From the sequence record NC_019725.1: a stretch of 50,552 nt of DNA; one strand, given 5' to 3'. A program made the translations under genes and the position numbers. Positions 1,929 through 43,035 of this stretch are shown here, piece after piece; position 1 is the stretch's first letter, and every line of letters starts with the position of its first letter. The stretch is from Escherichia phage ADB-2. Under the pieces are notes generated by a model. The model made no database searches. It was not told the DNA's origin and was given only the letters and a program-made list of their open reading frames with translations.

Positions 1929-1983
1929 CTCGTCATTCTCCTGATTGGTTGATGTGTTAACTATACCCCGATTCCCTTCGGGC

Positions 1984-2188: not shown

Positions 2189-2203
2189 TTGTTAGTCCGT
2201 TAA

Positions 2204-2389: not shown

Positions 2390-2446
2390 TTTATTTTTCC
2401 TCAATCTCGTTTCGATGAGGTAATTATGACAAATCACACCGATCGA

Positions 2447-2467
2447 GTTTTAACAAAAAGTGCTATT
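2447..2467 (-). promoter_or_regulatory. conserved intergenic element (copy 2)
   Basis: rc = AATAGCACTTTTTGTTAAAAC. Confidence 0.6.
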
Positions 2468-3153
2468 TGCGATCGCTTTGAAAAAACCACGCGGCGACAG
2501 GGATCTTATCAGCTTCGTTTTGGCAGACTTGCCGCCAAGTTTGTTTTGCTGTGCAGAGTACCCGTCAGGCAGATTTACAGGTTTTCTCTCCGGCATGACA
2601 AAATCGTCAGAGGTCCACAGACAAGTTTTCTTCGGGTAAGCATCGCGCGGCGCAATATACATCGGGAACCAGGGGTGTGAGTCATTCTCAGGAAGATAGC
2701 CGCCATACTCCCAGGGATTGAAGGAGTGATTTGGTTTTCTCCACGCAGACGACAGGACGCTTACCGGATTCTCAATGATGTAAGTCACGCCTAGCTATCG
2801 CCAATGTTCGCAGCAATCCGGGCAGTAGCGACAGCCTTCTCCTGGAATAACGGATCGCGTTCACGCTTGCTTGCAAAATGGCGAGCGCCACTAACAGCCA
2901 GGTCAGTGCAAGGAGGGAAAGCCATAATGAAATCCGGCTTGCCATACACACCAGAGATAGCATCACGCTCAAACGCTGCGTCAATGAACACGTTCACATA
3001 CTCAATGTTCGGATGCTCCACTCTGGCATTGTACTTTGCGTAATCTCCGTGATCGGCTCCGTCAAAGTTGAAGCACATCACCTTATGACCTTGCTTTGCC
3101 AGTTCATAACCAGCAATCCCGGAACCGTCGAATAGCGACCAAATTAATTTCAT
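2450..3153 (-). pseudogene. cytosine-C5 DNA methyltransferase-like gene, frame-disrupted near 2790 (possible sequencing indel)
   Basis: N-terminal ORF has LFDGSGIAG (motif I-like) and FPPCTDLAVSG (PC motif IV-like); adjacent ORF in -1 frame begins YIIENPVS (ENV motif VI-like); spacing of motifs matches C5-MTases. Confidence 0.5.
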
Positions 3154-3213
3154 CGTGACTTCCTCTTCTGATTGGTTTATGTGCCGGACTATACCCGATC
3201 TACCCGACCGAGT

Positions 3214-3233
3214 CGTTAGCAAAAAATGCTATT
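3214..3233 (-). promoter_or_regulatory. conserved intergenic element (copy 3, variant TAGCAT)
   Basis: rc = AATAGCATTTTTTGCTAACG; upstream of methyltransferase-like gene. Confidence 0.55.
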
Positions 3234-3854
3234 CCAATAATTGCTCATTATTCCATCAGTGCTGTAATAGGTGGAATAATTTTGATTGTGATTGATTGTG
3301 AATGATGAAACGTGATTATTGCATGGTGTGCAACAGTTGGTTGATTTGTTGCTTAGAATGCAATGATTGTGAGAGGGGGGATTTAGTGTTACCCGGTTCG
3401 CCTGGTGGTCATCTCCATTTTTAGCAAAACGTGCTATCGATTACGGTTACACTTGACCGCGTGTTAACAGTTGTCTACAATTTGCCTGAATCTCAATAGT
3501 AGACAAAATTACACCAAATTACGCCTTATAATATACATATAGATATATGTATATATATAATATATAAGTATTTTTTTATTTGTATATATAGATACTATTA
3601 TCTGTAATATGGTTGTATAGCGTGTCTACTATGTTAATCGTTGGATGCTCTGATTATTGTATTCATGTTTATATATACAGTAGTTTTATCGGCTCATATT
3701 TATATGGGGAAAGCGATTAACACGATTAACACGATTAACCACACTTAAAATCGACCTGCAAGCCTTGACGCAGGCGGGTCGTCGTGTAACACTGCAATTA
3801 GAGACGCGCTGTTACGCGTTAATCATTGTGTATATTGAAAATAAGGAGAAACCT
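3223..3854. promoter_or_regulatory. AT-rich divergent intergenic region with short repeats (candidate regulatory hub / origin)
   Basis: 630 bp without convincing ORF between divergent gene blocks; TATATA-rich; 3 tandem copies of GATTAACAC (3714-3741); inverted TTGTCTAC/GTAGACAA; TGATTG repeats. Confidence 0.5.
3417..3437 (-). promoter_or_regulatory. conserved intergenic element (copy 4)
   Basis: rc = ATAGCACGTTTTGCTAAAAAT; no coding gene directly downstream on minus strand. Confidence 0.55.
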
Positions 3855-4319
3855 ATGAGTTCTTACCAATCAGATGCGGTTCAGGCAGCAATTCAGGCGG
3901 CTTACGAGAAGGCAGGGGTAACGGTTGAGCAGCGCCAGGAGGCTAAGGTGACTGATGTTATCCGGGCCGCTTGCGATCAGCTTTATGGTGATGGCGAGAA
4001 TACTGAGTTCACATTCGACGCTACTCAAATGGCTGAGGCCGCTGTAAGGAAGTCAATGCCAGACGCCGACGATTATGATGTTGTCGAGTGCGCTGGGTCG
4101 TGGTTGTTGGGTAAAACCGAAGAGATTAACGAGAAGTTTAAATCATCATTCATCACCCCGATCGTTTCTCGCCACTTCTCCAAAATCGGCAAATCGGTCA
4201 AGGTGAGCGTGACTATGAACGATGAGAAGTTGCGAGTAGTTACTATCTCAGTGAGTGATGAAGAGGTTCCGGTGAAGAAGCGCCGCAGCCGGAAAAAGTT
4301 AGCTTGGCTGATTGCTTGA
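3855..4319 (+). CDS. hypothetical protein
   Basis: 154 aa from ATG with AAGGAG RBS. Confidence 0.55.
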   Translation: MSSYQSDAVQAAIQAAYEKAGVTVEQRQEAKVTDVIRAACDQLYGDGENTEFTFDATQMAEAAVRKSMPDADDYDVVECAGSWLLGKTEEINEKFKSSFITPIVSRHFSKIGKSVKVSVTMNDEKLRVVTISVSDEEVPVKKRRSRKKLAWLIA

Positions 4320-4434
4320 TTCATTTGATGTTGATGTTAGCAAGCTATCCGATAGCGAGTTAATGGTTCGTGATGTGAATGAGATCGTGCGCCAGATGAA
4401 GGCACATATCGAAAAGTGTGGACTGTAAGGAGAG

Positions 4435-4680
4435 ATGAGTATGAGCAAAATTAAGCATGACGCCCTGAAAGGTATCTTGATGCGACTAAACCCAGGCGAA
4501 GCATTCCAGCTTAACCCCGAGACGTTTGGATTCAATGGTGATTATCGTACAACCTTCGAATTTGTAAGGTATGTAAAGAAAGAGTTTGGATTCGAAGTTA
4601 TTCACGCAGGTCTTATCAATGGCATCCAGACATTCATCTTTAAGCCAAATGAGATTCGTTGCTTCACACTGATGAAATAG
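4435..4680 (+). CDS. hypothetical protein
   Basis: 81-aa ORF, AGGAGAG RBS. Confidence 0.5.
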   Translation: MSMSKIKHDALKGILMRLNPGEAFQLNPETFGFNGDYRTTFEFVRYVKKEFGFEVIHAGLINGIQTFIFKPNEIRCFTLMK

Positions 4681-4695
4681 CACTTTTTGTTAAAG
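4676..4695 (+). promoter_or_regulatory. conserved intergenic element (copy 5)
   Basis: AATAGCACTTTTTGTTAAAG; TAG doubles as stop of upstream ORF. Confidence 0.6.
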
Positions 4696-4752
4696 ACCGG
4701 TCTAGCGGATCGGGTATTATCTTTTCATCGACACGATACAGAGGAAACGAAT

Positions 4753-4947
4753 ATGGAAACGCAAATTGACGTAGTGGTTGTTCAGCGCGACTCAACTCAT
4801 GAAAAGGGTCTGTTCAAGAAAGGAACCGAAATCACGATCGACCTTGAGGATATGGTTGCATATCACTCGGGCCTTACCTGGAACGTGGTGCGCGTAGGCA
4901 GCGACTACAAACTCAAAGGCTTTAACACTTACTTTGCAGAGGTTTAA
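4753..4947 (+). CDS. hypothetical protein
   Basis: 64 aa from ATG with GAGGAAA RBS. Confidence 0.5.
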   Translation: METQIDVVVVQRDSTHEKGLFKKGTEITIDLEDMVAYHSGLTWNVVRVGSDYKLKGFNTYFAEV

Positions 4948-4949
4948 TC

Positions 4950-5420
4950 ATGGCGACAATTACCGTATTCCTGGCTAAAGATGAGATTGATGGCGAAATG
5001 TCATTCTTCGCGTTTGAGCACAAAACCGGATCGCACTGGCATATGTACAGCCACTACACGGTCATCGATATCAACTCATACCGCGCAAACTCACTTACTG
5101 AAAAGCTGAGTTGCTTCATTGGAGCTATCAAGGTGAACAATGGCTGCGAGTGGGAAGATGAGCACGAAGAGCGCCGCATGTGCAATATGATTAACCCGGT
5201 CTATCTTGAGTCGTTCGAGCTTGATGCTGATGTGGCTATTAAGGTGAGAAAGTCGGGTGAGTTGTTGCCAGGGATGCGTGTGCTGACTGGTTACTCAGGT
5301 CGTAAGGTATGGCGCACTGTATCAAAGATTCGCCATCGTTCGGCAACATGCTATAGCGTATTCTTTGATGATGGTTGGAATATGATGTCCGGCAGTGAAG
5401 TAAAGTATCTCACCAAATAG
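4950..5420 (+). CDS. hypothetical protein
   Basis: 156-aa ORF. Confidence 0.5.
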   Translation: MATITVFLAKDEIDGEMSFFAFEHKTGSHWHMYSHYTVIDINSYRANSLTEKLSCFIGAIKVNNGCEWEDEHEERRMCNMINPVYLESFELDADVAIKVRKSGELLPGMRVLTGYSGRKVWRTVSKIRHRSATCYSVFFDDGWNMMSGSEVKYLTK

Positions 5421-5436
5421 CACGAATTGCTAAATC
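5416..5436 (+). promoter_or_regulatory. conserved intergenic element (copy 6)
   Basis: AATAGCACGAATTGCTAAATC; TAG = stop of 4950..5420. Confidence 0.6.
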
Positions 5437-5497
5437 AGCGCAGCAAGGAGGCTGTATATTAAACTAATTGAAACAAACGATTCTAGATGAGGAAAGA

Positions 5498-5758
5498 ATG
5501 AATAAGTCAGAGTTTATTGGAAGGGTAATTGATTGCAATTTAAGATTTGAAGTTAAAAAGGTGAGAGTGAACAAGGATAGAAATTATGGCCTTGACATTC
5601 AAACATACTCCCTCTGGCTGGTTGGCGAGCACAGCTCTGATGATACAATCACAATGGGGATTGATGCGCAGCCTCTTCTTGTAAAGTTTAGAAGCATTGA
5701 TAAAGCAAATAAAGAAGCTGAAAAGTTTAACAGATGGATAGGTAGCACGAATTGTTAA
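5498..5758 (+). CDS. hypothetical protein
   Basis: 86 aa, GAGGAAAGA RBS; C-terminus reads through the next element copy. Confidence 0.5.
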   Translation: MNKSEFIGRVIDCNLRFEVKKVRVNKDRNYGLDIQTYSLWLVGEHSSDDTITMGIDAQPLLVKFRSIDKANKEAEKFNRWIGSTNC

Positions 5759-5762
5759 AAAC
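5742..5762 (+). promoter_or_regulatory. conserved intergenic element (copy 7)
   Basis: GTAGCACGAATTGTTAAAAAC followed by hairpin GGGGTA...TACCCC carrying TATAGT. Confidence 0.6.
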
Positions 5763-5823
5763 GGATCGGGGTATCTTGCTATAGTTACCCCATCAAAACG
5801 AGATACCAATCAGAGGATTAACC

Positions 5824-6054
5824 ATGTCAATCGTCAAGAACCAACAAGCCATCGACTCAACCAGCCACAACCGCTTTGCTATTTTCATCACTCGCGACAA
5901 CAAGCGATTTGCTGTCAGGGCCGTGCCTGGTGGATACAAAACCTATATGGAAAATAACGGAAAATGGGTATGCTGCGACAACCTTGCCAACTTCCTGGTA
6001 TGGAACGCAGACCTGCAAGGATTCGATGATATCAGCACTTTAATTGAGGAATAA
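5824..6054 (+). CDS. hypothetical protein
   Basis: 76-aa ORF after CCAATCAGAGGA leader. Confidence 0.5.
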   Translation: MSIVKNQQAIDSTSHNRFAIFITRDNKRFAVRAVPGGYKTYMENNGKWVCCDNLANFLVWNADLQGFDDISTLIEE

Positions 6055-6060
6055 ATAATC

Positions 6061-6288
6061 ATGCCACGTTACAGTAACCTAACCAAACTAGTCCGCGTAA
6101 ACGGGCACATGATCCCGGCAAAATCTACTCACTGCGCTAAGGGAGCAAAGCACGGATTATATTTCAAGTGGCGCGGTCAGTGGAACTTCACGGCGGTGAG
6201 TAATTTCTACATGCGCGTTCCTGGTGACGATCCGCAATCGGTAGTAGAAAACTCAATCGGCGACAACAAGATCGAGGTACTAAAATGA
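6061..6288 (+). CDS. hypothetical protein
   Basis: 75-aa ORF. Confidence 0.45.
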   Translation: MPRYSNLTKLVRVNGHMIPAKSTHCAKGAKHGLYFKWRGQWNFTAVSNFYMRVPGDDPQSVVENSIGDNKIEVLK

Positions 6289-6395
6289 ACTTCAATACAA
6301 TAGCTCTATGGTCTGCCGTCTGGTTCTTCTGCATGGGTCACGTTATGGTCGGCATCGTGGTAATGCTTCTCCTGTGTGCGGGGGCGTTCGAATGA
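6285..6395 (+). CDS. small hydrophobic (membrane) peptide
   Basis: 36-aa ORF MNFNTIALWSAVWFFCMGHVMVGIVVMLLLCAGAFE; ATGA overlap with upstream stop. Confidence 0.4.
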   Translation: MNFNTIALWSAVWFFCMGHVMVGIVVMLLLCAGAFE

Positions 6396-6565
6396 TGCGA
6401 ATATTGATTTGCATGATGGCGGCGGTCGCCCTGGCTATCCTGGTAGTGTCAGGATGCGGAGAGGTCAGAGATAGCTGTCATAAGACCGGGAACCAGGTTA
6501 CTACGTTTGTGATGGTTGGCAATGTTTTGCTACCAATCACATCAAATGAAATCACTTGCGAATAG
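6392..6565 (+). CDS. small putative lipoprotein
   Basis: MMRILICMMAAVALAILVVSGC... signal peptide with lipobox-like VSGC; ATGA overlap with previous ORF. Confidence 0.4.
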   Translation: MMRILICMMAAVALAILVVSGCGEVRDSCHKTGNQVTTFVMVGNVLLPITSNEITCE

Positions 6566-6573
6566 AGGTTGAT

Positions 6574-6765
6574 ATGGCTGATTTTATGCACCAAATGATT
6601 GCAGTATTCAAAGGCAGTGATGACCAGGAAGTGAAAGAGTGCTTTACTGTCGACAAGACTTATAGTGCATCGCTAACCAGTTTCGGGAATATCTCATTAC
6701 TTGATGATAACGGCGACCCCTGGATATTCGACGAAGACACCGATTGCTTCGAAATTAAAGAATAG
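6574..6765 (+). CDS. hypothetical acidic protein
   Basis: 63 aa from ATG; stop TAG is part of next element copy. Confidence 0.45.
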   Translation: MADFMHQMIAVFKGSDDQEVKECFTVDKTYSASLTSFGNISLLDDNGDPWIFDEDTDCFEIKE

Positions 6766-6781
6766 CACTTTTTGTTAAAAA
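6761..6781 (+). promoter_or_regulatory. conserved intergenic element (copy 8)
   Basis: AATAGCACTTTTTGTTAAAAA then hairpin GGGGTT...AACCCC with TATAGT. Confidence 0.6.
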
Positions 6782-6836
6782 TAAATTCCGGGGTTGCGAT
6801 ATAGTAACCCCATCGACAACGAACGAGGACGAGAAC

Positions 6837-7355
6837 ATGAAAATTAAATTACTTTGCACTGGCGGTTACAAAGGCTTTACCCGAGATCTGGAAGCAGACC
6901 CTATCGTGGTTGATGCGGTGAAGTGTGATTCCAGTACCGGAGGCTACCGCGTTAAGGTTGACGATCTGGTTAAAGCTGGCGTGTACGATCTGGACTATGG
7001 ACTTTCGGTTAGCCCTGTATTTGGTCCGGCTGACTTTAACGAGAATGACGGAACGATGTTCTTCTTCGAATGGGAAGTCCAAGCAAATCCTAAGCCGCGC
7101 AAGGTTCGACTTCTCAGTAATGGCGGCTACCCGCTGCGACAAGGCTATGAGAACCGCACATTCCCAGTTATCGTGGACTTTGAAGAAATTACTAGCAATC
7201 TGGCATACGTTAACGATGAGCAGTTGCGAGCCGTTGGATTTGTCGGTGGGATGAATAAAGAGGCACTTTGCTTCTTCCACTGTAACGCCGAGCCGTTCGA
7301 TATTGAGTGCGAGTTAGTTACTAAGCACGAATTGTTAAAAGGGGATTCGTCCTGA
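6837..7355 (+). CDS. hypothetical protein
   Basis: 172-aa ORF. Confidence 0.5.
   Translation: MKIKLLCTGGYKGFTRDLEADPIVVDAVKCDSSTGGYRVKVDDLVKAGVYDLDYGLSVSPVFGPADFNENDGTMFFFEWEVQANPKPRKVRLLSNGGYPLRQGYENRTFPVIVDFEEITSNLAYVNDEQLRAVGFVGGMNKEALCFFHCNAEPFDIECELVTKHELLKGDSS
7322..7340 (+). promoter_or_regulatory. conserved intergenic element (copy 9)
   Basis: TAAGCACGAATTGTTAAAA; followed by hairpin GGGGATT...AATCCCC. Confidence 0.6.
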
Positions 7356-7356
7356 C

Positions 7357-7365
7357 TGGTATAAT
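7357..7365 (+). promoter_or_regulatory. extended -10-like box TGgTATAAT
   Basis: Perfect TGnTATAAT 31 nt upstream of the ATG at 7396, inside the hairpin following element copy 9. Confidence 0.4.
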
Positions 7366-7395
7366 CCCCACATCAACCACTAAGAGGAAAGCATC

Positions 7396-7902
7396 ATGTT
7401 AAAATTAGAAGACGTAAAATTCCCGATTAAATTTATCAGCCTGGGTCGCGGTGAAATTACATTCACCAGTGAAGATAAAGGCAAGTGGGCCACTGATGAG
7501 GTGTCTCAGCTTAAGTTGGATTGGTTTATCAATCGGCACAATGAAGTAAATCCTGAAAACTCAGCCAAGAAGGATTACCATTACATTATTAGTGGTAGTC
7601 AGGATGCGTACGAAAAGTATGATGGTTGGAAAACTGATCGATCCATCTTCCACCCCGCAAAGCCAGAAATTAAACCGATGTTACAATGCACTCAGATCGA
7701 GAACATGCCATTGAGCGCTACGCTAAAGGGCGTTCAACTTGATAGCGAATCCTGGATCGAGATTACCGCCACACCTAAAACTATTGAGGTGCATGATGAT
7801 GTAGTGATTCTCCTATTGCATTACGGCAGCTTTAAGCACAAAACGGTATCAGGTGAAATAAGCGTTAAGCGCGGAACACTTGTACGCTATGAGGTGAAAT
7901 AA
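7396..7902 (+). CDS. hypothetical protein
   Basis: 168-aa ORF. Confidence 0.5.
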   Translation: MLKLEDVKFPIKFISLGRGEITFTSEDKGKWATDEVSQLKLDWFINRHNEVNPENSAKKDYHYIISGSQDAYEKYDGWKTDRSIFHPAKPEIKPMLQCTQIENMPLSATLKGVQLDSESWIEITATPKTIEVHDDVVILLLHYGSFKHKTVSGEISVKRGTLVRYEVK

Positions 7903-8051
7903 TGGCGGCGTGGATTTTGATTATCTTGATGAGTACCGGGCCAGATCACGTATACATGGAAAGCCAACAATCATGCAACAAGGCTCGGGAAGTAATTGCA
8001 GAAAACAAGCCGTTCGGATACGAAGTAAAAACAATGTGCGTTAAACGATAG
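7902..8051 (+). CDS. small hydrophobic protein (49 aa)
   Basis: ATG overlapping upstream TAA (TAATG); hydrophobic N-terminus MAAWILIILMSTG; stop TAG is part of element copy 10; below the ORF-track size cutoff. Confidence 0.4.
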   Translation: MAAWILIILMSTGPDHVYMESQQSCNKAREVIAENKPFGYEVKTMCVKR

Positions 8052-8066
8052 CACGAATTGCTAAAC
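8048..8066 (+). promoter_or_regulatory. conserved intergenic element (copy 10)
   Basis: ATAGCACGAATTGCTAAAC then hairpin GGCCA...TGGCC with TGATATAGT. Confidence 0.6.
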
Positions 8067-8131
8067 CTTCCGCAAGGCCATTTGATATAGTGGCCTTATT
8101 GAAGCATGGCAACCAATCAGAGGAATCAGTT

Positions 8132-8344
8132 ATGGCTACACGACTAACTCAATGGCAGATTTACGACAAGGCATCTCGCCTTCGTGAATCACTTCGAGGT
8201 CTGACACCGAATGATCGCATGGAAATCATCGGTCATGCATTGCACGAACTCACGCCGCATGAAGTAACCTATCATTCTTGCGGCAATAAATTTTGGAACG
8301 TAACATTCGAGGTGAAGAAAGATGAGCAAGATTCACAAACTTAA
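8132..8344 (+). CDS. hypothetical protein
   Basis: 70 aa from ATG after CCAATCAGAGGA leader. Confidence 0.5.
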   Translation: MATRLTQWQIYDKASRLRESLRGLTPNDRMEIIGHALHELTPHEVTYHSCGNKFWNVTFEVKKDEQDSQT

Positions 8345-8609
8345 GATCAATCCTGTACATTTCATTGGTGTAATGAACGGAACCAAAACGGCAGAGTTCC
8401 GCATCAATGACCGCAACTTCCAGGTTGGTGATATCATTGAGCTACGCGAGTTCGATCGTGACGAGTTTACTGGGTGGGAAGTTCACGCAAGGGTATCCGA
8501 TGTTACCGATGTGACGCCATACATCAATCGCGGGTATGACGATCAGGAATGCGACTTCACGCAATACGTGATGTTATCAATCAAACCTTACAGGAAGGTT
8601 AGACCATGA
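8322..8609 (+). CDS. ASCH/DUF3850-like small protein (PUA-like fold candidate)
   Basis: 95 aa; N-terminal pattern KIHKLKINPVHF...GTKTAEFRINDRNFQVGDIIELRE resembles the DUF3850 family; recalled from memory, not searched. Confidence 0.45.
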   Translation: MSKIHKLKINPVHFIGVMNGTKTAEFRINDRNFQVGDIIELREFDRDEFTGWEVHARVSDVTDVTPYINRGYDDQECDFTQYVMLSIKPYRKVRP

Positions 8610-9007
8610 AATTTGAATGCGTATCAAGTAGCGGATCTGGCTTTAAGTGGGGAAAAATCTACGAAGGCGCTCGAATCAATGACGACAGCTTCGTTGTCGT
8701 GGATGAGAACGGCAGTAACGTGAACATCATCCGTCGTCACGAGTACCAGGAAATTTTCCTGCCGTATTGCGGTAGTTCAAAATATATCTTCCATCGAATC
8801 GTGGATGGTGTTAAATTTAGAGACGTAATCGAAGCAATCAATCAACTGCATAATAAAGAGGTAAAATTTATGAAATTTGAATGTATCAGTGATAATACCA
8901 AAAAATTTACTGTTGGCAAAATCTACGACGTTCCTACTGAGCACGCAAAGCACACTGTAGCGCTTACTGACGATACGCCGTCACCGCATTGCTACCGTAA
9001 CGCATAA
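8606..9007 (+). CDS. hypothetical protein with internal tandem duplication
   Basis: 133 aa; MKFECVSSSGSGFKWGKIYEG and MKFECISDNTKKFTVGKIYDV are repeated modules; the second is preceded by an in-frame AAAGAGG RBS + ATG at 8871. Confidence 0.45.
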   Translation: MKFECVSSSGSGFKWGKIYEGARINDDSFVVVDENGSNVNIIRRHEYQEIFLPYCGSSKYIFHRIVDGVKFRDVIEAINQLHNKEVKFMKFECISDNTKKFTVGKIYDVPTEHAKHTVALTDDTPSPHCYRNA

Positions 9008-9256
9008 TGGCGAAGGTCTGCGATGGAATAGCGGCGGCACTAAGTTTGCAACGTTCGGCAAGAAGCGTAAGCGCACTTTCTGCGTTAAAGGCAAGGTTGC
9101 AGCAAACAAGAACCACAGCGTCAAGCCAATCGAAGTTGATGGTAAAGTCAAGCCTAAGCTGACCAACAAGGACATTGATAATCTGGCGAACCTGGCTATG
9201 GCTACCGTGCTTCTTATTTCTCTTATCGTGCTGTTTTTCGTAGTTTAACTTAAAGT

Positions 9257-9288
9257 GGGAATCGTTCCTGAGCGGTTCCCTATTTTTA
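9257..9288 (+). terminator. rho-independent terminator-like hairpin
   Basis: GGGAATCG-loop-CGGTTCCC followed by TATTTTTA. Confidence 0.55.
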
Positions 9289-9298
9289 TGAGGTGAAT

Positions 9299-9421
9299 AT
9301 GAATAGCTTTATGCCTGACTTTAAGAACTGGAAAAACGAACCTCCATCATTTCAGGAGTTGCTATTCTGCCTCCTGGTCCTGACATTATCTCTTAAGGGT
9401 GTTTTATGGCTACTATCATGA
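9299..9421 (+). CDS. small membrane protein (40 aa)
   Basis: ATG with GAGGTGA RBS; hydrophobic C-terminal half LLFCLLVLTLSL; below ORF-track cutoff. Confidence 0.35.
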   Translation: MNSFMPDFKNWKNEPPSFQELLFCLLVLTLSLKGVLWLLS

Positions 9422-9624
9422 CAGCAGAAGATGCAGCACGTGAAGCAGTGGAAGGAATGCGACCAAATACCTCCAGAATCGCACACTACTACAAATTTGA
9501 CGTATCAGCAGTGCAATTGGTCCATGAAATTTTAAGGCTCCCACAAGTCGATTCAGCGCGCGTGGTGACGTGCTTAAAAAATTATTTTTGCATCACTATT
9601 AAAACGAATAGCACGAATTGCTAA
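9406..9624 (+). CDS. hypothetical protein
   Basis: 72-aa ORF; C-terminus reads through element copy 11. Confidence 0.45.
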   Translation: MATIMTAEDAAREAVEGMRPNTSRIAHYYKFDVSAVQLVHEILRLPQVDSARVVTCLKNYFCITIKTNSTNC

Positions 9625-9627
9625 AAC
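9607..9627 (+). promoter_or_regulatory. conserved intergenic element (copy 11)
   Basis: AATAGCACGAATTGCTAAAAC then hairpin AGGGGAAT...ATTCCCCT. Confidence 0.6.
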
Positions 9628-9681
9628 CTATCAAGGGGAATGCGCTATGATTCCCCTACACCAAAAAACGAGGAAGCACGA

Positions 9682-10128
9682 ATGAAACACCTAATCTGTA
9701 TTGAAGCACCTAACGACGAGTACACTCTGCATGGTTTAGGTATGTTCAAAGGTCACTACATTACAGCTAAGATTCAAGATGACAAGCTGGATGATGGCGA
9801 TCTGGAAATCACATCGAAAGATGTTAATCCTTACATCATGCAGAATCTTGGAAATAACGAATATATGGCCTACGGCTGCAATGCGGTGTACAAGCATGTC
9901 AATATCCGCAAACGCGTTGTTCGAGCGTTCAAGAAAATTGCAATGAAATACTGGAAGATGAGCAAGAAAGATGCCGGGCGCTGGGCGCGTAACGCTGCTG
10001 ATTTATACTTCTATAGCAGCGGAGAGCCAGCCAACTTCCTGATCGATGAAATGATGGAAAATTATAGCGGCACATTCTGCCAAAGTGACTTTGACGCCTG
10101 GGTTGGACGCGAGTTAGATTACTGGTAA
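9682..10128 (+). CDS. hypothetical protein
   Basis: 148 aa from ATG with GAGGAAG RBS. Confidence 0.5.
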   Translation: MKHLICIEAPNDEYTLHGLGMFKGHYITAKIQDDKLDDGDLEITSKDVNPYIMQNLGNNEYMAYGCNAVYKHVNIRKRVVRAFKKIAMKYWKMSKKDAGRWARNAADLYFYSSGEPANFLIDEMMENYSGTFCQSDFDAWVGRELDYW

Positions 10129-10147
10129 TAGCACGAATTACTAAAAC
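10127..10147 (+). promoter_or_regulatory. conserved intergenic element (copy 12)
   Basis: AATAGCACGAATTACTAAAAC then hairpin AAGGGCAT...ATGCCCTT. Confidence 0.6.
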
Positions 10148-10211
10148 TTGCTCAAGGGCATTTGTTAGAATGCCCTTCGTTGAGTTAAGCAACCAATCAG
10201 AGGAATAAATC

Positions 10212-10823
10212 ATGGATAAAATCACAATTTGGGGCCAGACAATCAACCTGTTTCTCGGTACGCGCCGCGTAGCAATCTTTGACTTTGATGGAACACTTAG
10301 CGATGGATCTGGTCGACTTCACCTGCTACCTACAAAGGATTTGCACTTAACTGAAAGCTGGTCCGAGTTTAACCGCGCGGCAATATTTGACAACCCTATC
10401 CAAAGCACGATCGATGTGATGAACTCTATGTTTGCCGCTGGATATCATGTAATAATTTTAACCGGGCGAAGTGATGAGGTGCGTTACGCATCTGAGTTAT
10501 GGCTTAAGCATCACGGCGCTCGATATGATTACCTGATTATGCGACCGCATACCGACAACCGCAAAGACACGGTAATGAAAGAAGAGGCAGTGCGCGCTAT
10601 CGGCATTGATAACATTCTTGCGGCATGGGATGACTCACCGCAAATTATTCCATTATTCCGCTCGCTTGGAATAACAACTTACGCTGTAGTTGACTATGGC
10701 GATAACGTTCACAATCATTTAAAATCTCACGGGGTAGATGAGGTTTGCAATCATGAACCATCTGAGCCGCTACCGCCATTTGGTGAGAAAATTTGCATTA
10801 AGTGCAAGGAGTTATTGAAGTGA
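10212..10823 (+). CDS. HAD-superfamily phosphatase (polynucleotide 3'-phosphatase or nucleotidase-like)
   Basis: AIFDFDGTLSDG (HAD motif I DxDGT), ILTGR (motif II), downstream K and WDDS (motif IV). Confidence 0.6.
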   Translation: MDKITIWGQTINLFLGTRRVAIFDFDGTLSDGSGRLHLLPTKDLHLTESWSEFNRAAIFDNPIQSTIDVMNSMFAAGYHVIILTGRSDEVRYASELWLKHHGARYDYLIMRPHTDNRKDTVMKEEAVRAIGIDNILAAWDDSPQIIPLFRSLGITTYAVVDYGDNVHNHLKSHGVDEVCNHEPSEPLPPFGEKICIKCKELLK

Positions 10824-10931
10824 ACCTATACGAATTTATTGCAGCGCATCCGGTATTAACGGTTATCATTCTGCTAATCATCAATCACACTATCATCAAT
10901 GTAGCAAAATTATTTTTAGGGAGATGCTAAC

Positions 10932-11504
10932 ATGAAAACAGCTATCATTTTAAACGGTGCACCTGGTGCTGGAAAGGACACTATCGGATGCATCCTGGCT
11001 GACACTTACGATCATGTAGCTTTGCGCAGCTTCAAAGCACCAATGTTTGAGATTGCTCGGGCAATCTTGGGTGAAACTAACTACGAGTATTTCATGTTCT
11101 TGTATGAGGACCGTAGTTACAAAGAAGAGCCAGCATCAATCCTGAACGGTAAAAGCCCGCGCCAGTTTATGATCTGGATTAGCGAGGAAGTCATCAAGCC
11201 GCAGTTCGGAAATCGATTCTTCGGTATGCGAGCGGAAAGCAAGGTGAAAGAGTCGCACTCACTTTCGGTATTTACTGACGGGGGATTCAAAGACGAGATC
11301 TTGCAAATGATTGAAGGAGATATCCAGGTCAAGCTATGCCGCATACATCGCAACGGTTGCAACTTCGATAACGACAGTCGCGATTATATCTATCTGGACG
11401 ATATGATCGGGGTTAACGGTTATCAGGAATGTGACTTCTTCTCTGTCGAAGGTCATCCAGAAATTACCGCTCAGCACATAGCCGCTACGTTCATCAACAA
11501 ATAG
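10932..11504 (+). CDS. P-loop nucleotide/nucleoside-monophosphate kinase-like protein
   Basis: N-terminal Walker A ILNGAPGAGKDT, reminiscent of phage dNMP kinases; adjacent to HAD phosphatase. Confidence 0.55.
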   Translation: MKTAIILNGAPGAGKDTIGCILADTYDHVALRSFKAPMFEIARAILGETNYEYFMFLYEDRSYKEEPASILNGKSPRQFMIWISEEVIKPQFGNRFFGMRAESKVKESHSLSVFTDGGFKDEILQMIEGDIQVKLCRIHRNGCNFDNDSRDYIYLDDMIGVNGYQECDFFSVEGHPEITAQHIAATFINK

Positions 11505-11520
11505 CACGAATTGCTAAAAC
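11499..11520 (+). promoter_or_regulatory. conserved intergenic element (copy 13)
   Basis: AAATAGCACGAATTGCTAAAAC; TAG = stop of kinase gene. Confidence 0.6.
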
Positions 11521-11576
11521 GTCGGTGGGGTGATTTGATATAGTTACCTCATCGACAACGAAGAGAGAAAATCGAA

Positions 11577-13323: not shown

Positions 13324-13332
13324 TGGTAAAAT
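13324..13332 (+). promoter_or_regulatory. extended -10-like box TGgTAAAAT
   Basis: Directly after terminator and overlapping start of element copy 14. Confidence 0.35.
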
Positions 13333-13349
13333 AGCACTAAATGTTAAAC
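13329..13349 (+). promoter_or_regulatory. conserved intergenic element (copy 14)
   Basis: AAATAGCACTAAATGTTAAAC immediately followed by RBS AAGAGGA and the terminase small subunit ATG. Confidence 0.6.
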
Positions 13350-20014: not shown

Positions 20015-20042
20015 CATAAAAACACTTTGACGCTTTAACAAA

Positions 20043-20063
20043 AAGTGCTATTATTGAAGCCGT
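20043..20063 (-). promoter_or_regulatory. conserved intergenic element (copy 15, antisense to late genes)
   Basis: rc = TAATAGCACTTTTTGTTAAAG; located between plus-strand late genes. Confidence 0.5.
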
Positions 20064-23792: not shown

Positions 23793-23813
23793 CTTTTAAC
23801 AAAAAATGCTATC
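23793..23813 (-). promoter_or_regulatory. conserved intergenic element (copy 16, antisense orientation)
   Basis: rc = GATAGCATTTTTTGTTAAAAG; lies just upstream of plus-strand chaperone gene but in opposite orientation. Confidence 0.5.
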
Positions 23814-34770: not shown

Positions 34771-35230
34771 TTACAATTTTTTCGTGTAACGGGTGTCTAT
34801 TTTTGTAATCGGAGATGGTGTTACAAAATCCACCCCATCAGAACGCAGGTAGATATGATAAAAACTCTATATAATATATATAGATAGATAATATTTAATT
34901 TTAGCTTTATATATATAATTATTGTTGTGTAACAGTTGTCTATCATGTAACAGGTGATTTGATTGATTCGTCAAATTTCTATCATATATGTTCAAAATTT
35001 AATCAATCTTGATTCTATTCATGGATATCTGTGTATTTCTAAGAAAAAGCGGTTACAAGTATTACGAAATAGACACCACATAAAAACAGGATTAAGCCAT
35101 TGATTCTGTTGATGCTGATTGTAACTTGAACGATATAGACACGCTATTACACACCAATTACATGTATCCGATTGACTAAACGCTGTTAATGGCTATAATG
35201 GATTCATCGTAAACGAAGGAGATAAGCGCA
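34771..35230. promoter_or_regulatory. second AT-rich repeat-rich intergenic region
   Basis: No convincing ORF; shares GTGTCTAY/ATAGACAC, TAACAGTTGTCTA and GATTGATTG words with region 3223..3854. Confidence 0.5.
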
Positions 35231-36295: not shown

Positions 36296-36369
36296 ACGGC
36301 ACAAATAGCTAAACAAATAATTAATGAGGTGTTATAATGCACCTCATACACCAATCAGGAGAAGTTAAG

Positions 36370-39452: not shown

Positions 39453-39474
39453 TAAAAAACCGCCCGAAGGCGGT
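39453..39474 (-). terminator. rho-independent terminator after primase gene
   Basis: minus strand reads ACCGCCTTCGGGCGGT + TTTTTTATT. Confidence 0.75.
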
Positions 39475-40409
39475 TAGAGTAGGTCACTTGCTGAGAATAA
39501 CTTGGATTGCATTCCTGAGCGGTATCCTCCAGGGTTCGGGATTATTATTTTTAATTGTCGGTCGTCTGCCATGTATAAAGTCTCCTTGTCCGAAGGTTCG
39601 CACGCCACTCTTACTTCTCGATCACCTTTATACCTGTACGCAACCATTTCTAAGTTTTCAGGAGTGAAGCAGGCCCATACCTCTTGCTTTGTGTGAAATG
39701 CAATATGCTGAGCATCAATCCAATTAAGGCATAAGTAGATCGCCTTCTCAGTTTTACCAGTCACGGCAACCGAGCAACTCGTATATTTCTTCGCGTAAAA
39801 TGATTCTCTTCCTTCCTCATCAATAATCAAAATATTGCAAAACTCATCATCAAGCCCGTCCTCATGCACAAGTTGACACGGAATGGTGTGAAACACGCTC
39901 TCCCCGCCATCTTCTCGACGTTTTACGCCAACGTCGAATGATTCAGTGGGTAGTGACTCAAAAATACTTAGGGGTGTGTTTACGCGCTTCTCTGTACGCT
40001 CCATAACTTTCATTACCGCCTCATGATCTGCCATCATGACATTGACACCTGATACCGGAGTTCGGCGCGCTTTCTTGTTTGCCTTGACAATGTATTCCTG
40101 CGGAACCTTGCCGAGAAATCTACCCAGGATATTTATGCATTCGCTATACGGCATACCAGTTAATTTCATCAACCAACCTATCCCGGAGTCGTTACCGCAT
40201 GAGTTGCAGATCGCGCCGCCGTCGCCTGGAGTGTTAAGATTGTCAGTCCAGCGAAAGCGGTCCTTACCTCCGCAGTTAGGGCAGGGCTGGTGTTTCTTGT
40301 TGAATACCTCGTTCGGCAACCCGCAGACTGACTGAAAAGCATCGCGCCATAAACCTTTCATGTACGGCAAAACATCCTCTTTCTGAAACATCATAAATTC
40401 TTCGTTCAC
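39474..40409 (-). CDS. DNA primase (zinc-ribbon + Toprim-type)
   Basis: 311 aa; CPNCGGKDRFRW...CNSCGN zinc-binding motif typical of phage primases; GGAGA RBS before GTG start. Confidence 0.65.
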   Translation of the reverse strand: MNEEFMMFQKEDVLPYMKGLWRDAFQSVCGLPNEVFNKKHQPCPNCGGKDRFRWTDNLNTPGDGGAICNSCGNDSGIGWLMKLTGMPYSECINILGRFLGKVPQEYIVKANKKARRTPVSGVNVMMADHEAVMKVMERTEKRVNTPLSIFESLPTESFDVGVKRREDGGESVFHTIPCQLVHEDGLDDEFCNILIIDEEGRESFYAKKYTSCSVAVTGKTEKAIYLCLNWIDAQHIAFHTKQEVWACFTPENLEMVAYRYKGDREVRVACEPSDKETLYMADDRQLKIIIPNPGGYRSGMQSKLFSASDLL

Positions 40410-40431
40410 TTCCAGATCTCCAAAATAAAAA

Positions 40432-40462
40432 ACGCGTAGAAGGATGTTAACCCGCTACGCGT
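40432..40462 (-). terminator. hairpin with flanking T-run between regulator-like gene and primase (attenuator-like)
   Basis: ACGCGTAG...CTACGCGT 8-bp stem, 15-nt loop; T-rich on minus strand after stem. Confidence 0.35.
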
Positions 40463-40467
40463 CGTTT

Positions 40468-40488
40468 GTTTTAACTAAAAATGCTATT
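40468..40488 (-). promoter_or_regulatory. conserved intergenic element (copy 19)
   Basis: rc = AATAGCATTTTTAGTTAAAAC; overlaps stop of 40471..40923. Confidence 0.55.
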
Positions 40489-40923
40489 AGTCGTTCCGAT
40501 ATCTTCCTTCTTCACGACGCGCATAAATTTCTTGTTCTTGCATCGCTTCTCAAGGCACTTGCCGTTACCGTCAAACTTCAGGTCGAATCGCAACCATGCG
40601 GCCCTAAACCCTTTACACCCCTGTCGGCGGTAAGCGCGATGCGCAGCTTCAGCACCTTGCCATGAAATCATATTGCGTTCTTTCCAGCCTTGCACCGTCT
40701 GATTGCTAACTTTTAGAGCCTTTGCGCAGGCCGCTGGGCCACCGTAATATTCGATAAGAGCATCAAGTCGCGCTCGCAGTCCGGCGCGTGTTTCTTCTTT
40801 ATGAATATAGAACCCACATCTCTGGCGAGGCCTTTTGTCTTTACCTCGTCGCGTTCCGTTGTTACCATTAATGTGACGTTTATCGATTTCACCAGTTGAC
40901 TCTGCGATACGTTGCATATTCAT
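40471..40923 (-). CDS. putative DNA-binding regulator (HTH-like segment, Cys-rich C-terminus)
   Basis: 150 aa from ATG with AGGAGAA RBS; segment GGPAACAKALKVSNQTVQGWKERN resembles Cro/YdaS-type HTH; basic; transcribed divergently from helicase. Confidence 0.4.
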   Translation of the reverse strand: MNMQRIAESTGEIDKRHINGNNGTRRGKDKRPRQRCGFYIHKEETRAGLRARLDALIEYYGGPAACAKALKVSNQTVQGWKERNMISWQGAEAAHRAYRRQGCKGFRAAWLRFDLKFDGNGKCLEKRCKNKKFMRVVKKEDIGTTNSIFS

Positions 40924-40935
40924 CTCAATTCTCCT

Positions 40936-40956
40936 GTAGCACTTTTTGCTAAAAAC
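40936..40956 (+). promoter_or_regulatory. conserved intergenic element (copy 20)
   Basis: GTAGCACTTTTTGCTAAAAAC, 15 nt upstream of TGtATTAT box (40972-40979). Confidence 0.6.
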
Positions 40957-41017
40957 GTTTACTGTATGTCGTGTATTATAGCGTAAACGATACAACGATT
41001 CAAAGGATTAAATAGCC

Positions 41018-43035
41018 GTGACAATTAACATCAAAAAGCAAATCGCATTACTTGGCGATGACTACATAAAACGCACTCAAGATCGATTCACTGTCGGCGA
41101 GGTCGTTCCTTACCCGTACCAAGTTGTTGCTTATGCCGAGATCGCGAAACGCCTATCAAATTATGAGCATCCATTCTTCGTTAAAGCGTCTGTATCAGCA
41201 GGTAAGACAATCATCTTCGCTATGGTGGCAAAGCAGTGTCAGAAAATGGGCTTAAAAATGCTCGTTCTTGCTCGTCAGGGTGAGATTGTCGATCAGGATA
41301 GTGAGGAGATTGACAACTTCGGGGTAACTAATTCCATATTCTCAGCCTCATTAGGTATTAAGTCCTGCTACTTCCCGATCGTGTTGGATCTGAGGGTACG
41401 GTTGCAAATGGCCTAGATAATGAGTTGGCTGACTTCGTCCCGCATGTAATTGGGATCGACGAATGTCATCAGGTGGATTGGGAAGACCTTGCGCAAGCCA
41501 TTGATGGCAAGGAAACAATGGAACAAATGAGGGGCGAGAAAGGGAAAATTATCATGGACGGAGATATTCCTCTGATTGGTAATGATGGAAAACCTCTTCT
41601 TGGAACTAAGCGCAGCCAGTACACTATAGTAATCATGGAAATGATGCGACGCTGTAAAGAGGTTCACGGGCACGATCTTAGAATATTTGGTATGACTGGA
41701 TCTGAATTTCGTGGCGTAGTTCCTATTCTGGTAGAGAATCCGAAAGCATTGGGATTCTGGCGTGAGCGAGTAACTGATATCGACACAAACTATCTGATTG
41801 AGTTCGGCTCTGTCGTTCCGACTATATTCGGATCAACAGACGGAGTTCATTACGATCTGGATAAGTTCAAGGCGTCGAGCGAGGACGGAGTGCAGGACTT
41901 TACAGAGAAAGACATGAAGGCTATGGAAGATGAGATCCTTCATGATAAATCTCTTACTCAGCGAATCATGCAAATGGTTGCCAAAAAGGCTGAAGAGCGT
42001 AACGCGGTACTGATTACATGCGCCGGGGTGCGTCACTGTAAAGAGGCGGCGGCTGCACTTCCACCTGGAAGTACCTATGCAATTATCACTGGCGAAACAG
42101 ACACCAAAACGCGCAAGAAGATTCTGGACGATGTAAGGGCAGGAAAAATTAAATACACCTTTCAGGTAATGGCGCTCACTACTGGCGTTAACGTTCCAAA
42201 TTGGGATTTCAGTGTCATACTCCGCAAGATAGGGTCGCTAACACTGTTGATTCAACTTTTGGGTAGGGGTATGCGTCTGCTTAAATCATGGCAGGTTGCT
42301 GAGGGAATGGTTAAGCAGGACCATCTGGTATGGGATTTCGCAGGTACGATGGATGAGTTGGGTCAGCTTTATTTCGATCCGATACTTGAGCAGGCGCAAT
42401 TCCAAAAGCGTTTTGAAAACGGAAAAGACCCGAAAACGTGTCCGAAGTGTGGTTGCGTAAATAGCTTCTACGCTCGCAGATGCATTAACGTCATCGACGG
42501 CGAGCGTTGCGATCATTTCTGGACTTCTCAGATTTGTGAGGACCAGGTTGACGAGCGCACAGGAAAAATCCTTGTTAAAGGATGCGGTGCAGAGAATGAC
42601 GTTGTGGCCCGAGTCTGTCGTTGTTGTGATGTTTCGCTTGTCGATCCTAACCTGAAGTTATCCGGTAAGGCGTACACTAAGAATGACTGGTATGAAGTAA
42701 AGAATTTTGAGGTTACGCTAACCAAAAACCAGAAAGGCATAATATACAAATACACGCTGATTAACGACGATGGTGATGAGTTCAAGGCGTATGAAAAATT
42801 CTTCCCCGAGTCAGACTCTAAGATTTGCGGTACGCTATGGAAAACGAAAGGTGTATTACCTCATGTGTCAGATCCTAAAATGCGTCGCTACTTTATCGGA
42901 ATGAAGAACGCTATCAAGATCGTGCAATACTCTCATCATATAGCGCATCCGGTACGCGTTACTCATAGGCGCAACCAGAAGAAGGAAGATATTATTTCAC
43001 GCAAAGATTTCGGTATGGAGGATATCCCGGAATGA
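41018..43035 (+). CDS. superfamily-2 DNA helicase with C-terminal zinc-ribbon (frame disrupted near 41365-41400)
   Basis: N-terminal ORF has Walker A SAGKT; continuation in -1 frame has DExH box GIDECHQ and later CPKCGC/CRCCD zinc-ribbon motifs. Confidence 0.75.

What the first reader, a model, noticed from the sequence alone, without database searches (positions are those of the whole stretch)
40471..41017. Small basic regulator-like gene divergent from the helicase operon: candidate binder of the repeated element
The 150-aa minus-strand product has an HTH-like segment (GGPAACAKALKVSNQTVQGWKERN), many Arg/Lys and a Cys-rich C-terminus. It is transcribed divergently from the helicase across a 95-bp region carrying one element copy (40936-40956) and a TGtATTAT box, and its own stop overlaps another copy (40468-40488). 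A dimeric HTH protein is the natural reader of a dyad like TAGCA-N5-TGCTA, making this a testable candidate for the factor recognising the element.
Basis: inference. Interest (0 to 1): 0.5.

Follow-up and report, generated by a model that had tools for sequence, protein, structure and literature searches.

The report
Phage T1 Pir regulator beside marbox promoters
The small gene is the already-studied T1-family regulator Pir, but the repeated sequence next to it looks like a perfect binding site for the host's MarA/SoxS/Rob stress activators placed where a promoter's -35 box should be, so the host proteins, not Pir, are its most likely readers.

Summary
Positions 40471-40923 (-) encode a 150-aa basic protein (pI 10.3) with a genuine Cro-type helix-turn-helix. 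The gene lies divergent from the helicase gene, with one copy of the repeat at each end.

The window is a T1-like phage (Drexlerviridae). The gene is T1 orf23, or pir. A 2019 study showed Pir activates Phol and Pdam and represses Ppir and PrecE; its binding site was never mapped.

The repeat is already published as a 21-nt direct repeat of unknown function in TLS, T1 and Rtp. It is not a symmetric operator.
- It equals the ChIP-seq consensus marbox gcactaattgctaaa, at 13-15 of 15 positions.
- It faces forward and lies exactly 20 nt upstream of a -10 hexamer, with no -35 box. This is the same geometry as the E. coli class II micF promoter.
- About 20 such promoters occur per genome in six genera.

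The box stays invariant while Pir's recognition helix is unconserved. One relative lacks Pir's invariant N-terminal arm yet keeps the boxes. The phage encodes no MarA-like protein.

Best reading (about 0.55): host Rob/MarA/SoxS/RamA read the box, and Pir is a separate modulator. I found no paper linking these repeats to the marbox.

The parts
40471..40923 (-). pir (T1 orf23 homologue): 150-aa basic Cro-fold HTH regulator. Residues 1-37 are disordered but nearly invariant (STGEIDKR..NGNNGTRRGKD). The HTH spans about residues 63-83. A C-terminal domain runs to about residue 140.
40931..40935 (-). Ribosome-binding site AGGAG of pir, 7 nt before the ATG
   Evidence: read directly from the sequence
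40936..40955 (+). 20-bp marbox-type element (core GCACTTTTTGCTAAA at 40939-40953), facing forward toward the helicase. It also lies at about +14 to +33 of the predicted pir transcript.
   Evidence: matrix score 17.7; consensus
40972..40979 (+). TGTATTAT: the -10 region of the helicase promoter (TATTAT at 40974-40979). It starts 20 nt after the marbox core. No -35 hexamer is present. The predicted start site is near 40986.
   Evidence: micF comparison
40975..41003 (-). Near-consensus sigma-70 promoter of pir: TTGAAT (41003-40998), 17 nt, TATAAT (40980-40975). Its -10 overlaps the helicase -10 on the other strand, giving a back-to-back bidirectional promoter with predicted start sites about 18 bp apart.
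   Evidence: T1 annotates a promoter at the same place
40955..40989 (.). Inverted repeat CGTTTAC / GTAAACG enclosing both -10 hexamers. It is one instance of the hairpin found around or just before the -10 of most promoters of this type.
   Evidence: dG -9.6, z -2.7
40468..40487 (-). Degenerate second copy (core GCATTTTTAGTTAAA at 40484-40470) overlapping the pir stop codon and facing the primase gene. A -10-like TAACAT (40449-40444) follows after 20 nt.
   Evidence: score 14.0; sequence
40423..40462 (-). Terminator hairpin after pir (stem 40462-40455 / 40439-40432, followed by a T-run). Its loop holds the TAACAT hexamer.
   Evidence: T1 annotates a rho-independent terminator at the equivalent place
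41018..43035 (+). Helicase gene (T1 orf22 homologue), driven by the marbox promoter. In this window it is split by a 1-nt deletion near 41385.
39474..40409 (-). DNA primase gene downstream of pir

Best explanation
**The gene.** This is pir (T1 orf23). It encodes a basic regulator with a Cro fold. That it regulates transcription is shown by published reporter assays: it activates Phol and Pdam and represses Ppir and PrecE.

**Its promoter.** Pir is made from one of the few near-consensus sigma-70 promoters of the genome (TTGAAT-17-TATAAT). The -10 of this promoter overlaps, back to back, the -10 of the helicase promoter.

**The repeat.** It is not Pir's dyad operator. It is a 20-bp consensus marbox that replaces the -35 box of about 20 early, replication and lysis-proximal promoters. 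Its arrangement is that of class II MarA/SoxS/Rob promoters such as micF:
- forward orientation;
- GCAC at about -47;
- 20 nt from the core to the -10.

**Inferred mechanism.**
1. A host MarA-family monomer binds the box and recruits sigma-70 RNA polymerase. Rob is present constitutively. MarA, SoxS or RamA would do this when the cell is stressed.
2. At the pir locus the same box lies at about +14 to +33 of the pir transcript. A loaded helicase promoter would therefore compete with pir transcription.
3. Pir acts as a separate modulator through sites not yet mapped. These are probably genus-specific operators read by its variable helix 3. Pir turns down the strong sigma-70 promoters Ppir and PrecE.
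For: **Identity of the gene**
- 93% DNA identity to T1, 97% protein identity, and the same primase-pir-helicase synteny.
- Pir function comes from PMC6737242.
- The Cro fold is supported.

**The element matches the marbox**
- The copy at 44471 is 15/15 identical to the MarA ChIP-seq consensus. The common variants match at 14/15 and 13/15.
- A matrix built from 32 MarA ChIP sites finds 32 sites at or above the median ChIP score, against 2.0 in shuffles. T7 has 4 weak sites, all in coding sequence.
- Unselected flanking positions carry information only across the 20-bp marbox span.

**Geometry**
- 19 of 23 sites have a -10 hexamer 19-21 nt downstream, most often 20 nt.
- E. coli micF has exactly 20 nt.
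- Rob contacts -47G and -45A at micF. The same numbering is predicted here.

**Conservation**
- The same box and spacing occur in Rtp, Vc1, Motto, Klebsiella phage KL and two metagenomic relatives.
- Pir helix 3 has no invariant residue.
- One relative lacks Pir's N-terminal arm.

**Other points**
- No MarA or Rob homologue is encoded in the window.
- Pdam, a box promoter, is active in a cell-free lysate with no phage protein added.
- PrecE and Phol respond to Pir but have no box.
- Reverse-oriented boxes sit in repressing positions in late promoters, as at promoters known to be repressed by MarA.
Against: - Nothing here or in the papers found shows MarA, SoxS or Rob binding to or activating a T1-family promoter. 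Start sites are predicted, not mapped.
- Rob is described as largely sequestered and inactive in unstressed cells. T1 nevertheless grows very well in ordinary cultures (my own knowledge).
- Phage Motto carries 20 such boxes in 30 kb. It is reported to grow on 32 of 50 clinical Pseudomonas aeruginosa strains. Marbox-binding activators are not known to me in that host. This favours a phage-encoded reader or no activator at all.
- Pir activates Pdam and represses Ppir, the two tested promoters that contain the box, in the directions expected if Pir bound it.
Confidence: 0.55

Rival explanations
1. Pir itself binds the repeated box. From about -41 it activates the helicase, dam and early promoters. 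From the leader of its own transcript it represses pir. This would make pir the immediate-early master activator.
For: - pir has a strong host-type promoter and is a core gene of the whole family: 823 phage records carry a homologue.
- One box always abuts its ribosome-binding site.
- Published reporters show Pir activates Pdam and represses Ppir, both of which contain the box.
- The 10-bp spacing between the TAGCA and TGCTA half sites would suit an HTH dimer (inference).
- Motto's reported growth on Pseudomonas argues for a phage-borne reader.
Against: - The box is invariant while Pir's recognition helix is unconserved.
- The N-terminal arm, the only invariant basic segment, is missing in one relative that keeps the boxes.
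- Conservation of the box is asymmetric.
- The box equals the site of a different, well-characterised protein family, in that family's promoter geometry.
- Pir also regulates box-less PrecE and Phol.
- Pdam works without Pir.
- About 13 early promoters with the box must fire before any phage protein exists (inference).
Confidence: 0.15
2. Both proteins act at the box. Host MarA-family proteins read the DNA. Pir works on them or beside them, for example as a co-activator, as a competitor, or by releasing sequestered Rob. Pir would use its conserved, non-HTH surfaces to do so.
For: - Pir's invariant residues lie outside helix 3: in the disordered N-terminal arm, helix 1 and the C-terminal domain. 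This is what is expected for a conserved protein partner.
- Pir raises Pdam activity above a Pir-independent basal level.
- Rob needs release from sequestration to be active.
Against: - This is pure inference. No interaction data exist.
- Pir also acts on promoters without a box.
- The arm-less relative shows the N-terminal arm is dispensable in at least one phage.
Confidence: 0.15
3. No dedicated activator reads the box. It would work as an UP-element-like or enhancer sequence for RNA polymerase alone, or as a 'stoperator' or RNA-level signal, as the TLS re-annotation paper suggested.
For: - The authors of the TLS paper proposed these options.
- The -10 hexamers are good and often have G at -14, so some activator-independent firing is plausible.
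- Hairpins accompany most copies.
Against: - The invariant ATAGCAC...TTGYTAAA does not resemble the A-tract UP consensus (my own knowledge).
- A 15/15 match to the marbox at exactly the class II distance would be an extraordinary coincidence.
- The hairpin sequences vary between copies while the box does not.
Confidence: 0.1

Closest known systems
Pir (Orf23) of coliphage T1 (Laganenka et al. 2019, mBio, PMC6737242)
   Same: It is the same gene: 97% identical protein, the same primase-pir-helicase synteny, and the same promoter region. It is shown to be a dual transcription regulator that represses itself.
   Different: Its DNA site was never mapped. The paper frames it as a 'prophage induction regulator', and the claim of T1 lysogeny has been disputed (PMC8262962 is listed). 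No link to the repeated box was made.
21-nt direct repeats of phage TLS, T1 and Rtp (PMC11447400, 2024)
   Same: It is the same element: consensus aaATAGCACnnnTTGnTAAAA, in the direction of transcription, about 76 nt before start codons.
   Different: The authors left the function open (stoperator, enhancer or UP element). They did not note the marbox identity, the fixed 20-nt distance to a -10 hexamer, or the missing -35.
Class II MarA/SoxS/Rob/RamA-dependent promoters, for example E. coli micF (PMC9178005, PMC5684230)
   Same: The 15-bp core consensus is the same. So are the forward orientation, the overlap with the -35 position, the 20 nt to the -10, and the predicted GCAC at about -47.
   Different: The sites are in a virulent phage, at about 20-30 near-consensus copies per 50 kb. 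E. coli has about 33 ChIP peaks per 5 Mb. Binding and activation by the host proteins are untested.
All-alpha Cro proteins (Xfaso1 Cro 3bd1, N15 Cro 2hin, P22 Cro 1rzs)
   Different: Pir has an extra invariant 37-residue disordered basic N-terminal arm and a structured C-terminal domain of about 50 residues. It scores below Pfam's cut-off for P22_Cro.
Phage T4 middle promoters (MotA box plus the MotA and AsiA proteins)
   Same: A sigma-70 -10 element is combined with an activator box in place of the -35, reused at many phage promoters (my own knowledge).
   Different: Here the box matches a host activator's site and sits at about -41.

Membership tests
T1 Orf23 / Pir family (PHROG 2856) | Full-length sequence similarity and conserved position between the primase and helicase genes | tested here: met
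   PHROG 2856 at 3e-76. 97% identity to T1 Orf23. The same synteny in T1, Rtp, Vc1, Motto, KL, L013 and L016.
Cro/CI-type (lambda-repressor-like) HTH proteins | All-alpha HTH fold | tested here: met
Cro/CI-type (lambda-repressor-like) HTH proteins | Score above Pfam's gathering threshold for P22_Cro (PF14549) or YdaS (PF15943) | tested here: not met
   23.6 bits against a cut-off of 30.2, and 19.5 against 30. Some homologues carry precomputed hits to these families.
Cro/CI-type (lambda-repressor-like) HTH proteins | Sequence-specific binding, as a dimer, to a two-fold symmetric operator | not testable with these tools
   No binding data exist. The operator is unknown. No k-mer of 8 nt or longer is shared by three or more of the four Pir-responsive T1 promoter fragments.
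   The left half is kept in 48 of 63 copies and the mirror half in 29 of 63, and the flanks are asymmetric. The box is invariant while helix 3 varies freely.
Marbox (MarA/SoxS/Rob/RamA binding site) | Match to the consensus (15-bp gcactaattgctaaa; 20-bp AYnGCACnnWnnRYYAAAYn, the latter quoted from memory of Martin et al. 1999) | tested here: met
   0-3 mismatches at 23 sites and 0-2 mismatches to the 20-mer at nearly all of them. 32 sites score at or above the median of real ChIP sites, against 2.0 by chance.
Class II marbox promoter | Forward orientation, overlap with the -35 position, centre between -36 and -55, micF-like distance to the -10, and no usable -35 hexamer | tested here: met
   The orientation always matches the downstream gene, and the gap to the -10 is 19-21 nt at 19 of 23 sites. 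micF has a gap of 20 nt. Start sites are predicted, not mapped.
Class II marbox promoter | Binding and activation by MarA, SoxS or Rob | not testable with these tools
   No paper was found that links the marbox to T1-like phages.
AraC/XylS (MarA-like) activator encoded by the phage | Sequence or fold similarity of any phage product to MarA or Rob | tested here: not met
Zinc-binding, Cys-rich DNA-binding domain | A conserved set of four Cys/His ligands | tested here: not met
   Only C128 is at least 90% conserved. C36, C66 and C123 are variable, and C103 is replaced by F or H in some homologues.

The most novel reading that the evidence does not exclude
Pir is a new kind of marbox-directed factor: a single-HTH Cro-fold protein that either binds the MarA-type box itself or docks onto the box-bound host activator. 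This would let T1-family phages drive about 20 'stress-regulon' promoters regardless of the host's stress state, and even in hosts without MarA, SoxS or Rob, such as the Pseudomonas host reported for Motto.
Probability: 0.15. Interest if true: 0.8.

Novelty: new member of a known kind. Interest (0 to 1): 0.55.

Why it matters
T1-like phages (Drexlerviridae) are classic laboratory phages. Their Klebsiella, E. coli and Shigella members are common phage-therapy candidates. Yet their promoters have stayed unexplained: only about three sigma-70 promoters were found in TLS.

If most early and middle promoters are class II marbox promoters, phage development is wired to Rob, MarA, SoxS and RamA. These are the same regulators that drive multidrug efflux and are over-expressed in many resistant clinical isolates.

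That predicts testable links between antibiotic, bile or oxidative stress and phage productivity. It also gives a simple genetic test: a rob marA soxS host. It would reassign Pir from 'reader of the repeat' to a separate switch acting on the few strong sigma-70 promoters.

For the finding as written, the practical message is that the proposed gel-shift experiment should include Rob, MarA and SoxS alongside Pir.

Tried and rejected
- **Zinc-finger C-terminus.** Rejected, because the cysteines are not conserved.
- **A phage-encoded MarA-like protein.** None was found.
- **A Pir operator shared by the four published Pir-responsive promoters.** No k-mer of 8 nt or longer is shared by three or more of the fragments.
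- **GTAAACG as the operator.** It flanks the -10 at Ppir and occurs in the PrecE leader, so I considered it. It coincides with the general hairpin-around-the--10 feature and with the family-wide leader CATCGAAACGA, and it is not conserved in T1 Phol or in other genera. I dropped it.
- **Distant Pir relatives in viral and metagenome contig collections.** Nothing was confirmed. Context was obtained by exact-protein look-up instead.
- **TTGCTA as a -35 hexamer.** Rejected, because the spacer to the -10 would be 22 bp.
Weakened by a relative that lacks the arm but keeps the boxes.
- **Literature searches** linking the marbox, MarA or Rob with T1-like phages found nothing relevant.
- **Technical note.** Loci fetched without an intervening script call were not copied to the script machine. 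Some sequences were therefore pasted in by hand.

Full report
**What the window is**

The region 40300-41200 is 92-94% identical to coliphage T1 and many T1-like Shigella and Escherichia phages. In T1 the equivalent genes are, in order:
- DNA primase (orf24);
- a 150-aa 'transcriptional regulator' (orf23);
- DNA helicase (orf22), transcribed divergently from orf23;
- a VRR-NUC resolvase;
- Dam methylase.

T1 also annotates a terminator after orf23 and a promoter in front of it. The window has the same genes.

**Checking the observation**

- The ORF at 40471-40923 (-) starts with ATG and has AGGAG 7 nt upstream.
- The product has pI 10.26 and 34 Lys+Arg in 150 residues.
- It matches PHROG 2856 'transcriptional regulator' at 3e-76. 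It matches Pfam P22_Cro and YdaS only below their cut-offs.
- An AlphaFold2 model built on 23 homologues is confident (pLDDT >90) for residues 38-140 and disordered for residues 1-37.

The HTH call is therefore correct. The 'Cys-rich C-terminus' does not stand: of five cysteines only C128 is conserved.

The intergenic region is 94 bp. It contains the element (40936-40955) and TGTATTAT (40972-40979). A degenerate copy overlaps the stop codon (40468-40487, - strand).

The dyad TAGCA-N5-TGCTA occurs 9 times exactly, against 0.05 expected.

**The gene is already known**

T1 Orf23 was studied by Laganenka et al. 2019 (PMC6737242) and named Pir.
- Expressed from a plasmid in E. coli, it activated GFP reporters of Phol (orf13) and Pdam (orf20).
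- It repressed its own promoter and PrecE (orf29).
- cAMP-CRP repressed Ppir, Pdam and PrecE in a cell-free lysate. So those promoters fire with no phage protein added.
- No binding site was mapped.

Homologues are found in 823 phage records. Every record I inspected is classified in Drexlerviridae. A profile search of 1.84 billion representative proteins finds only about 16 full-length cluster representatives.

**The repeat is already known as a repeat**

The TLS re-annotation paper (PMC11447400) reports a 21-nt direct repeat with consensus aaATAGCACnnnTTGnTAAAA.
- It occurs at 21 places, in the direction of transcription, about 76 nt before start codons.
- It is also present in T1, Rtp and Rogue1.
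- The same paper found only three sigma-70-like promoters in the genome.
- Its function was left open: stoperator, enhancer or UP element.

**What the repeat is**

Aligning all copies in their own orientation shows a module with four parts:
1. aaATAGCAC-N4-TTGYTAAAA;
2. a -10 hexamer (TATAGT, TATTAT or TATAAT) at a fixed distance;
3. a conserved leader, CATCGAAACGA;
4. a ribosome-binding site.

TTGCTA cannot be the -35, because the spacer to the -10 would be 22 bp. No -35-like hexamer sits at 16-18 bp.

*Sequence match to the marbox.*
- The core equals the marbox of MarA/SoxS/Rob. The ChIP-seq consensus of Sharma et al. 2017 is gcactaattgctaaa.
- The window copy at 44471 is GCACTAATTGCTAAA, a 15/15 match. 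The common variants are GCACGAATTGCTAAA (14/15) and GCACTTTTTGCTAAA (13/15).
- A weight matrix built only from the 32 chromosomal MarA ChIP sites of that paper finds 32 sites at or above the median ChIP score in the window, against 2.0 in shuffles.
- The same matrix finds 25 such sites in Rtp, 19 in Vc1, 20 in 30 kb of Motto and 20 in Klebsiella phage KL.
- T7 has 4 weak sites, all inside genes.
- In 63 promoters from four genomes, information content is high exactly over the 20-bp marbox span and falls to zero outside it. Conservation is asymmetric: the left half TAGCA is kept in 48 of 63, the mirror half in 29 of 63.

*Geometry.*
- 19 of 23 window sites have a -10 hexamer 19-21 nt after the 15-mer, most often 20 nt.
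- In E. coli K-12, the micF robbox GCACTGAATGTCAAA is followed by exactly 20 nt and then TAGAAT.
- In the Rob-RNA polymerase-micF cryo-EM complex, Rob contacts -47G and -45A of GCAC and occludes sigma region 4 from the -35.
- With a start site 7 nt after TATTAT, the G of the 40939 copy is at -47.
- Class II marboxes are defined as forward sites overlapping the -35, centred between -36 and -55.

The phage module therefore meets every sequence-level criterion of a class II marbox promoter.

**Who reads it**

Five observations argue against Pir.
1. Rtp, Vc1, Motto, KL and two metagenomic relatives (L013, L016) all keep the same box and spacing. In Rtp, Vc1 and L013, Pir is only about 51%, 45% and 40% identical. 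Its recognition helix reads NQTVQGWKER, PQAVEEWFKR, CVRLTNAYRL, YVTVRNAYKV and RHRVARWVEK in different genera, with no invariant residue.
2. Pir's invariant residues lie mainly in the disordered N-terminal arm (STGEIDKR..NGNNGTRRGKD), with a few more in helix 1 and the C-terminal domain. The relative on L016 has a Pir without that arm. It has a clean start right after the box and a GGAGG site, and it keeps boxes scoring 17.4-18.9 with the same layout.
3. Of the four published Pir-responsive T1 promoters, only two contain a box:
   - Pdam: score 17.4, class II position;
   - Ppir: score 17.7, reversed, in the leader;
   - PrecE: best score 5.6;
   - Phol: best score 2.3.
4. Pdam works in a lysate without Pir.
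5. About 13 box promoters drive the early small-gene arms (857-11504). These must fire before any phage protein is made. This point is inference.

The phage encodes nothing resembling MarA or Rob.

The host proteins are known to bind this consensus. Rob is constitutively abundant. The hosts named in most of the records listed are Enterobacterales: Klebsiella, Escherichia, Shigella, Salmonella, Citrobacter and Enterobacter.

**Arguments on the other side**

- Rob is described as mostly sequestered without inducers.
- Motto is reported to infect 32 of 50 clinical P. aeruginosa strains. It has 20 boxes in 30 kb.
- Pir's published effects on Pdam (up) and Ppir (down) are exactly what a box-binding Pir would produce.

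For these reasons I keep three rivals:
- Pir as the direct reader, at 0.15;
- a cooperative or modulatory Pir-host factor model, at 0.15;
- RNA polymerase alone, or some other function, at 0.10.

**Local architecture and likely logic at pir**

- On the minus strand, TTGAAT (41003-40998), 17 nt, TATAAT (40980-40975) is one of the two best sigma-70 promoters in the window. The other is PrecE at 35172. These are the two promoters that Pir represses.
- The pir -10 overlaps the helicase -10 (40974-40979) on the other strand. The two promoters are back to back, with predicted start sites about 18 bp apart. RNA polymerase can probably occupy only one at a time.
- The box lies at about +14 to +33 of the pir transcript, directly before its ribosome-binding site. 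This arrangement is kept in Rtp, Vc1, Motto, KL, L013 and L016.
- An inferred consequence: loading the helicase promoter through the box antagonises pir transcription, whoever binds the box.
- The second copy, at the pir stop codon, faces the primase gene. After 20 nt it has TAACAT, inside the loop of the pir terminator hairpin.

**Novelty and score**

The gene and the repeat are both in the literature. The identity of the repeat with the marbox in class II geometry was not found in any paper searched. It is well supported computationally, and a handful of standard experiments could test it. I rate the outcome as a new member of a known kind (class II marbox promoters; a Cro-fold regulator), with interest 0.55.

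Noticed in passing
window 41370-41400 (near 41385): The helicase gene is split into 41018-41416 and 41425-43035 by a 1-nt deletion relative to T1 (GATCGTGGTTGG in T1, GATCGT-GTTGG here). A PHROG family of exactly 132 aa (34481) matches the first piece end to end (1-132 of 132), so the same split may be annotated in other deposited genomes. It could be a sequencing error or a real frameshift.
   Followed up: partly
window, about 19 promoters, e.g. 8051-8100, 11504-11560, 36299-36350: Almost every box promoter has a stable hairpin between the box and the start site (mean z -3.0; 13 of 19 below -2). The hairpin either has the -10 hexamer in its loop or sits just before it. Stem sequences differ between copies. 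It may be a 3'-end or terminator hairpin for the upstream transcript, fused to the next promoter.
   Followed up: partly
window, downstream of most -10 hexamers, e.g. 2463(-), 5745, 11504, 43448: A conserved leader, CATCGAAACGA(GA), starts about 5 nt after the -10 hexamer. It also occurs at the box-less PrecE promoter (CATCGTAAACGAAGG). Many ribosome-binding sites are embedded in CCAATCAGGAG. Function unknown.
   Followed up: no
window 20027-20054; 23795-23812; 13331-13348: Boxes in the late region sit in non-activating positions. A reversed box exactly fills the 16-bp spacer of TTGACG-16-TATTAT, upstream of the 319-aa ORF at 20106 that I take to be the capsid gene. A reversed box lies just before the ribosome-binding site of the gene at 23834. 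A forward box without a -10 sits at the start of the packaging and structural operon. This suggests that the box-binding factor represses late promoters.
   Followed up: partly
window 34860-35040 and about 3530-3580: Two very AT-rich stretches full of TATATA-type runs lie near strand-switch points. One is upstream of recE and the other is in the left divergent region. They could be an origin, a promoter cluster or a nucleoid-protein target.
   Followed up: no
protein P0002: One database contig has exactly the window's length (50,552 bp; Shigella phage vB_SflS-ISF001). It encodes a Pir only 90% identical to the window's translation, with many K/E/N to I/T/V/M changes. This is unexplained. It may reflect a different record version or sequencing errors.
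   Followed up: no
T1 record AY216660 42028-42510 (locus L011/L012): T1 carries an HNH endonuclease gene (orf15) between the SbcD-like exonuclease gene and orf14. This gene is absent from the window.
   Followed up: no
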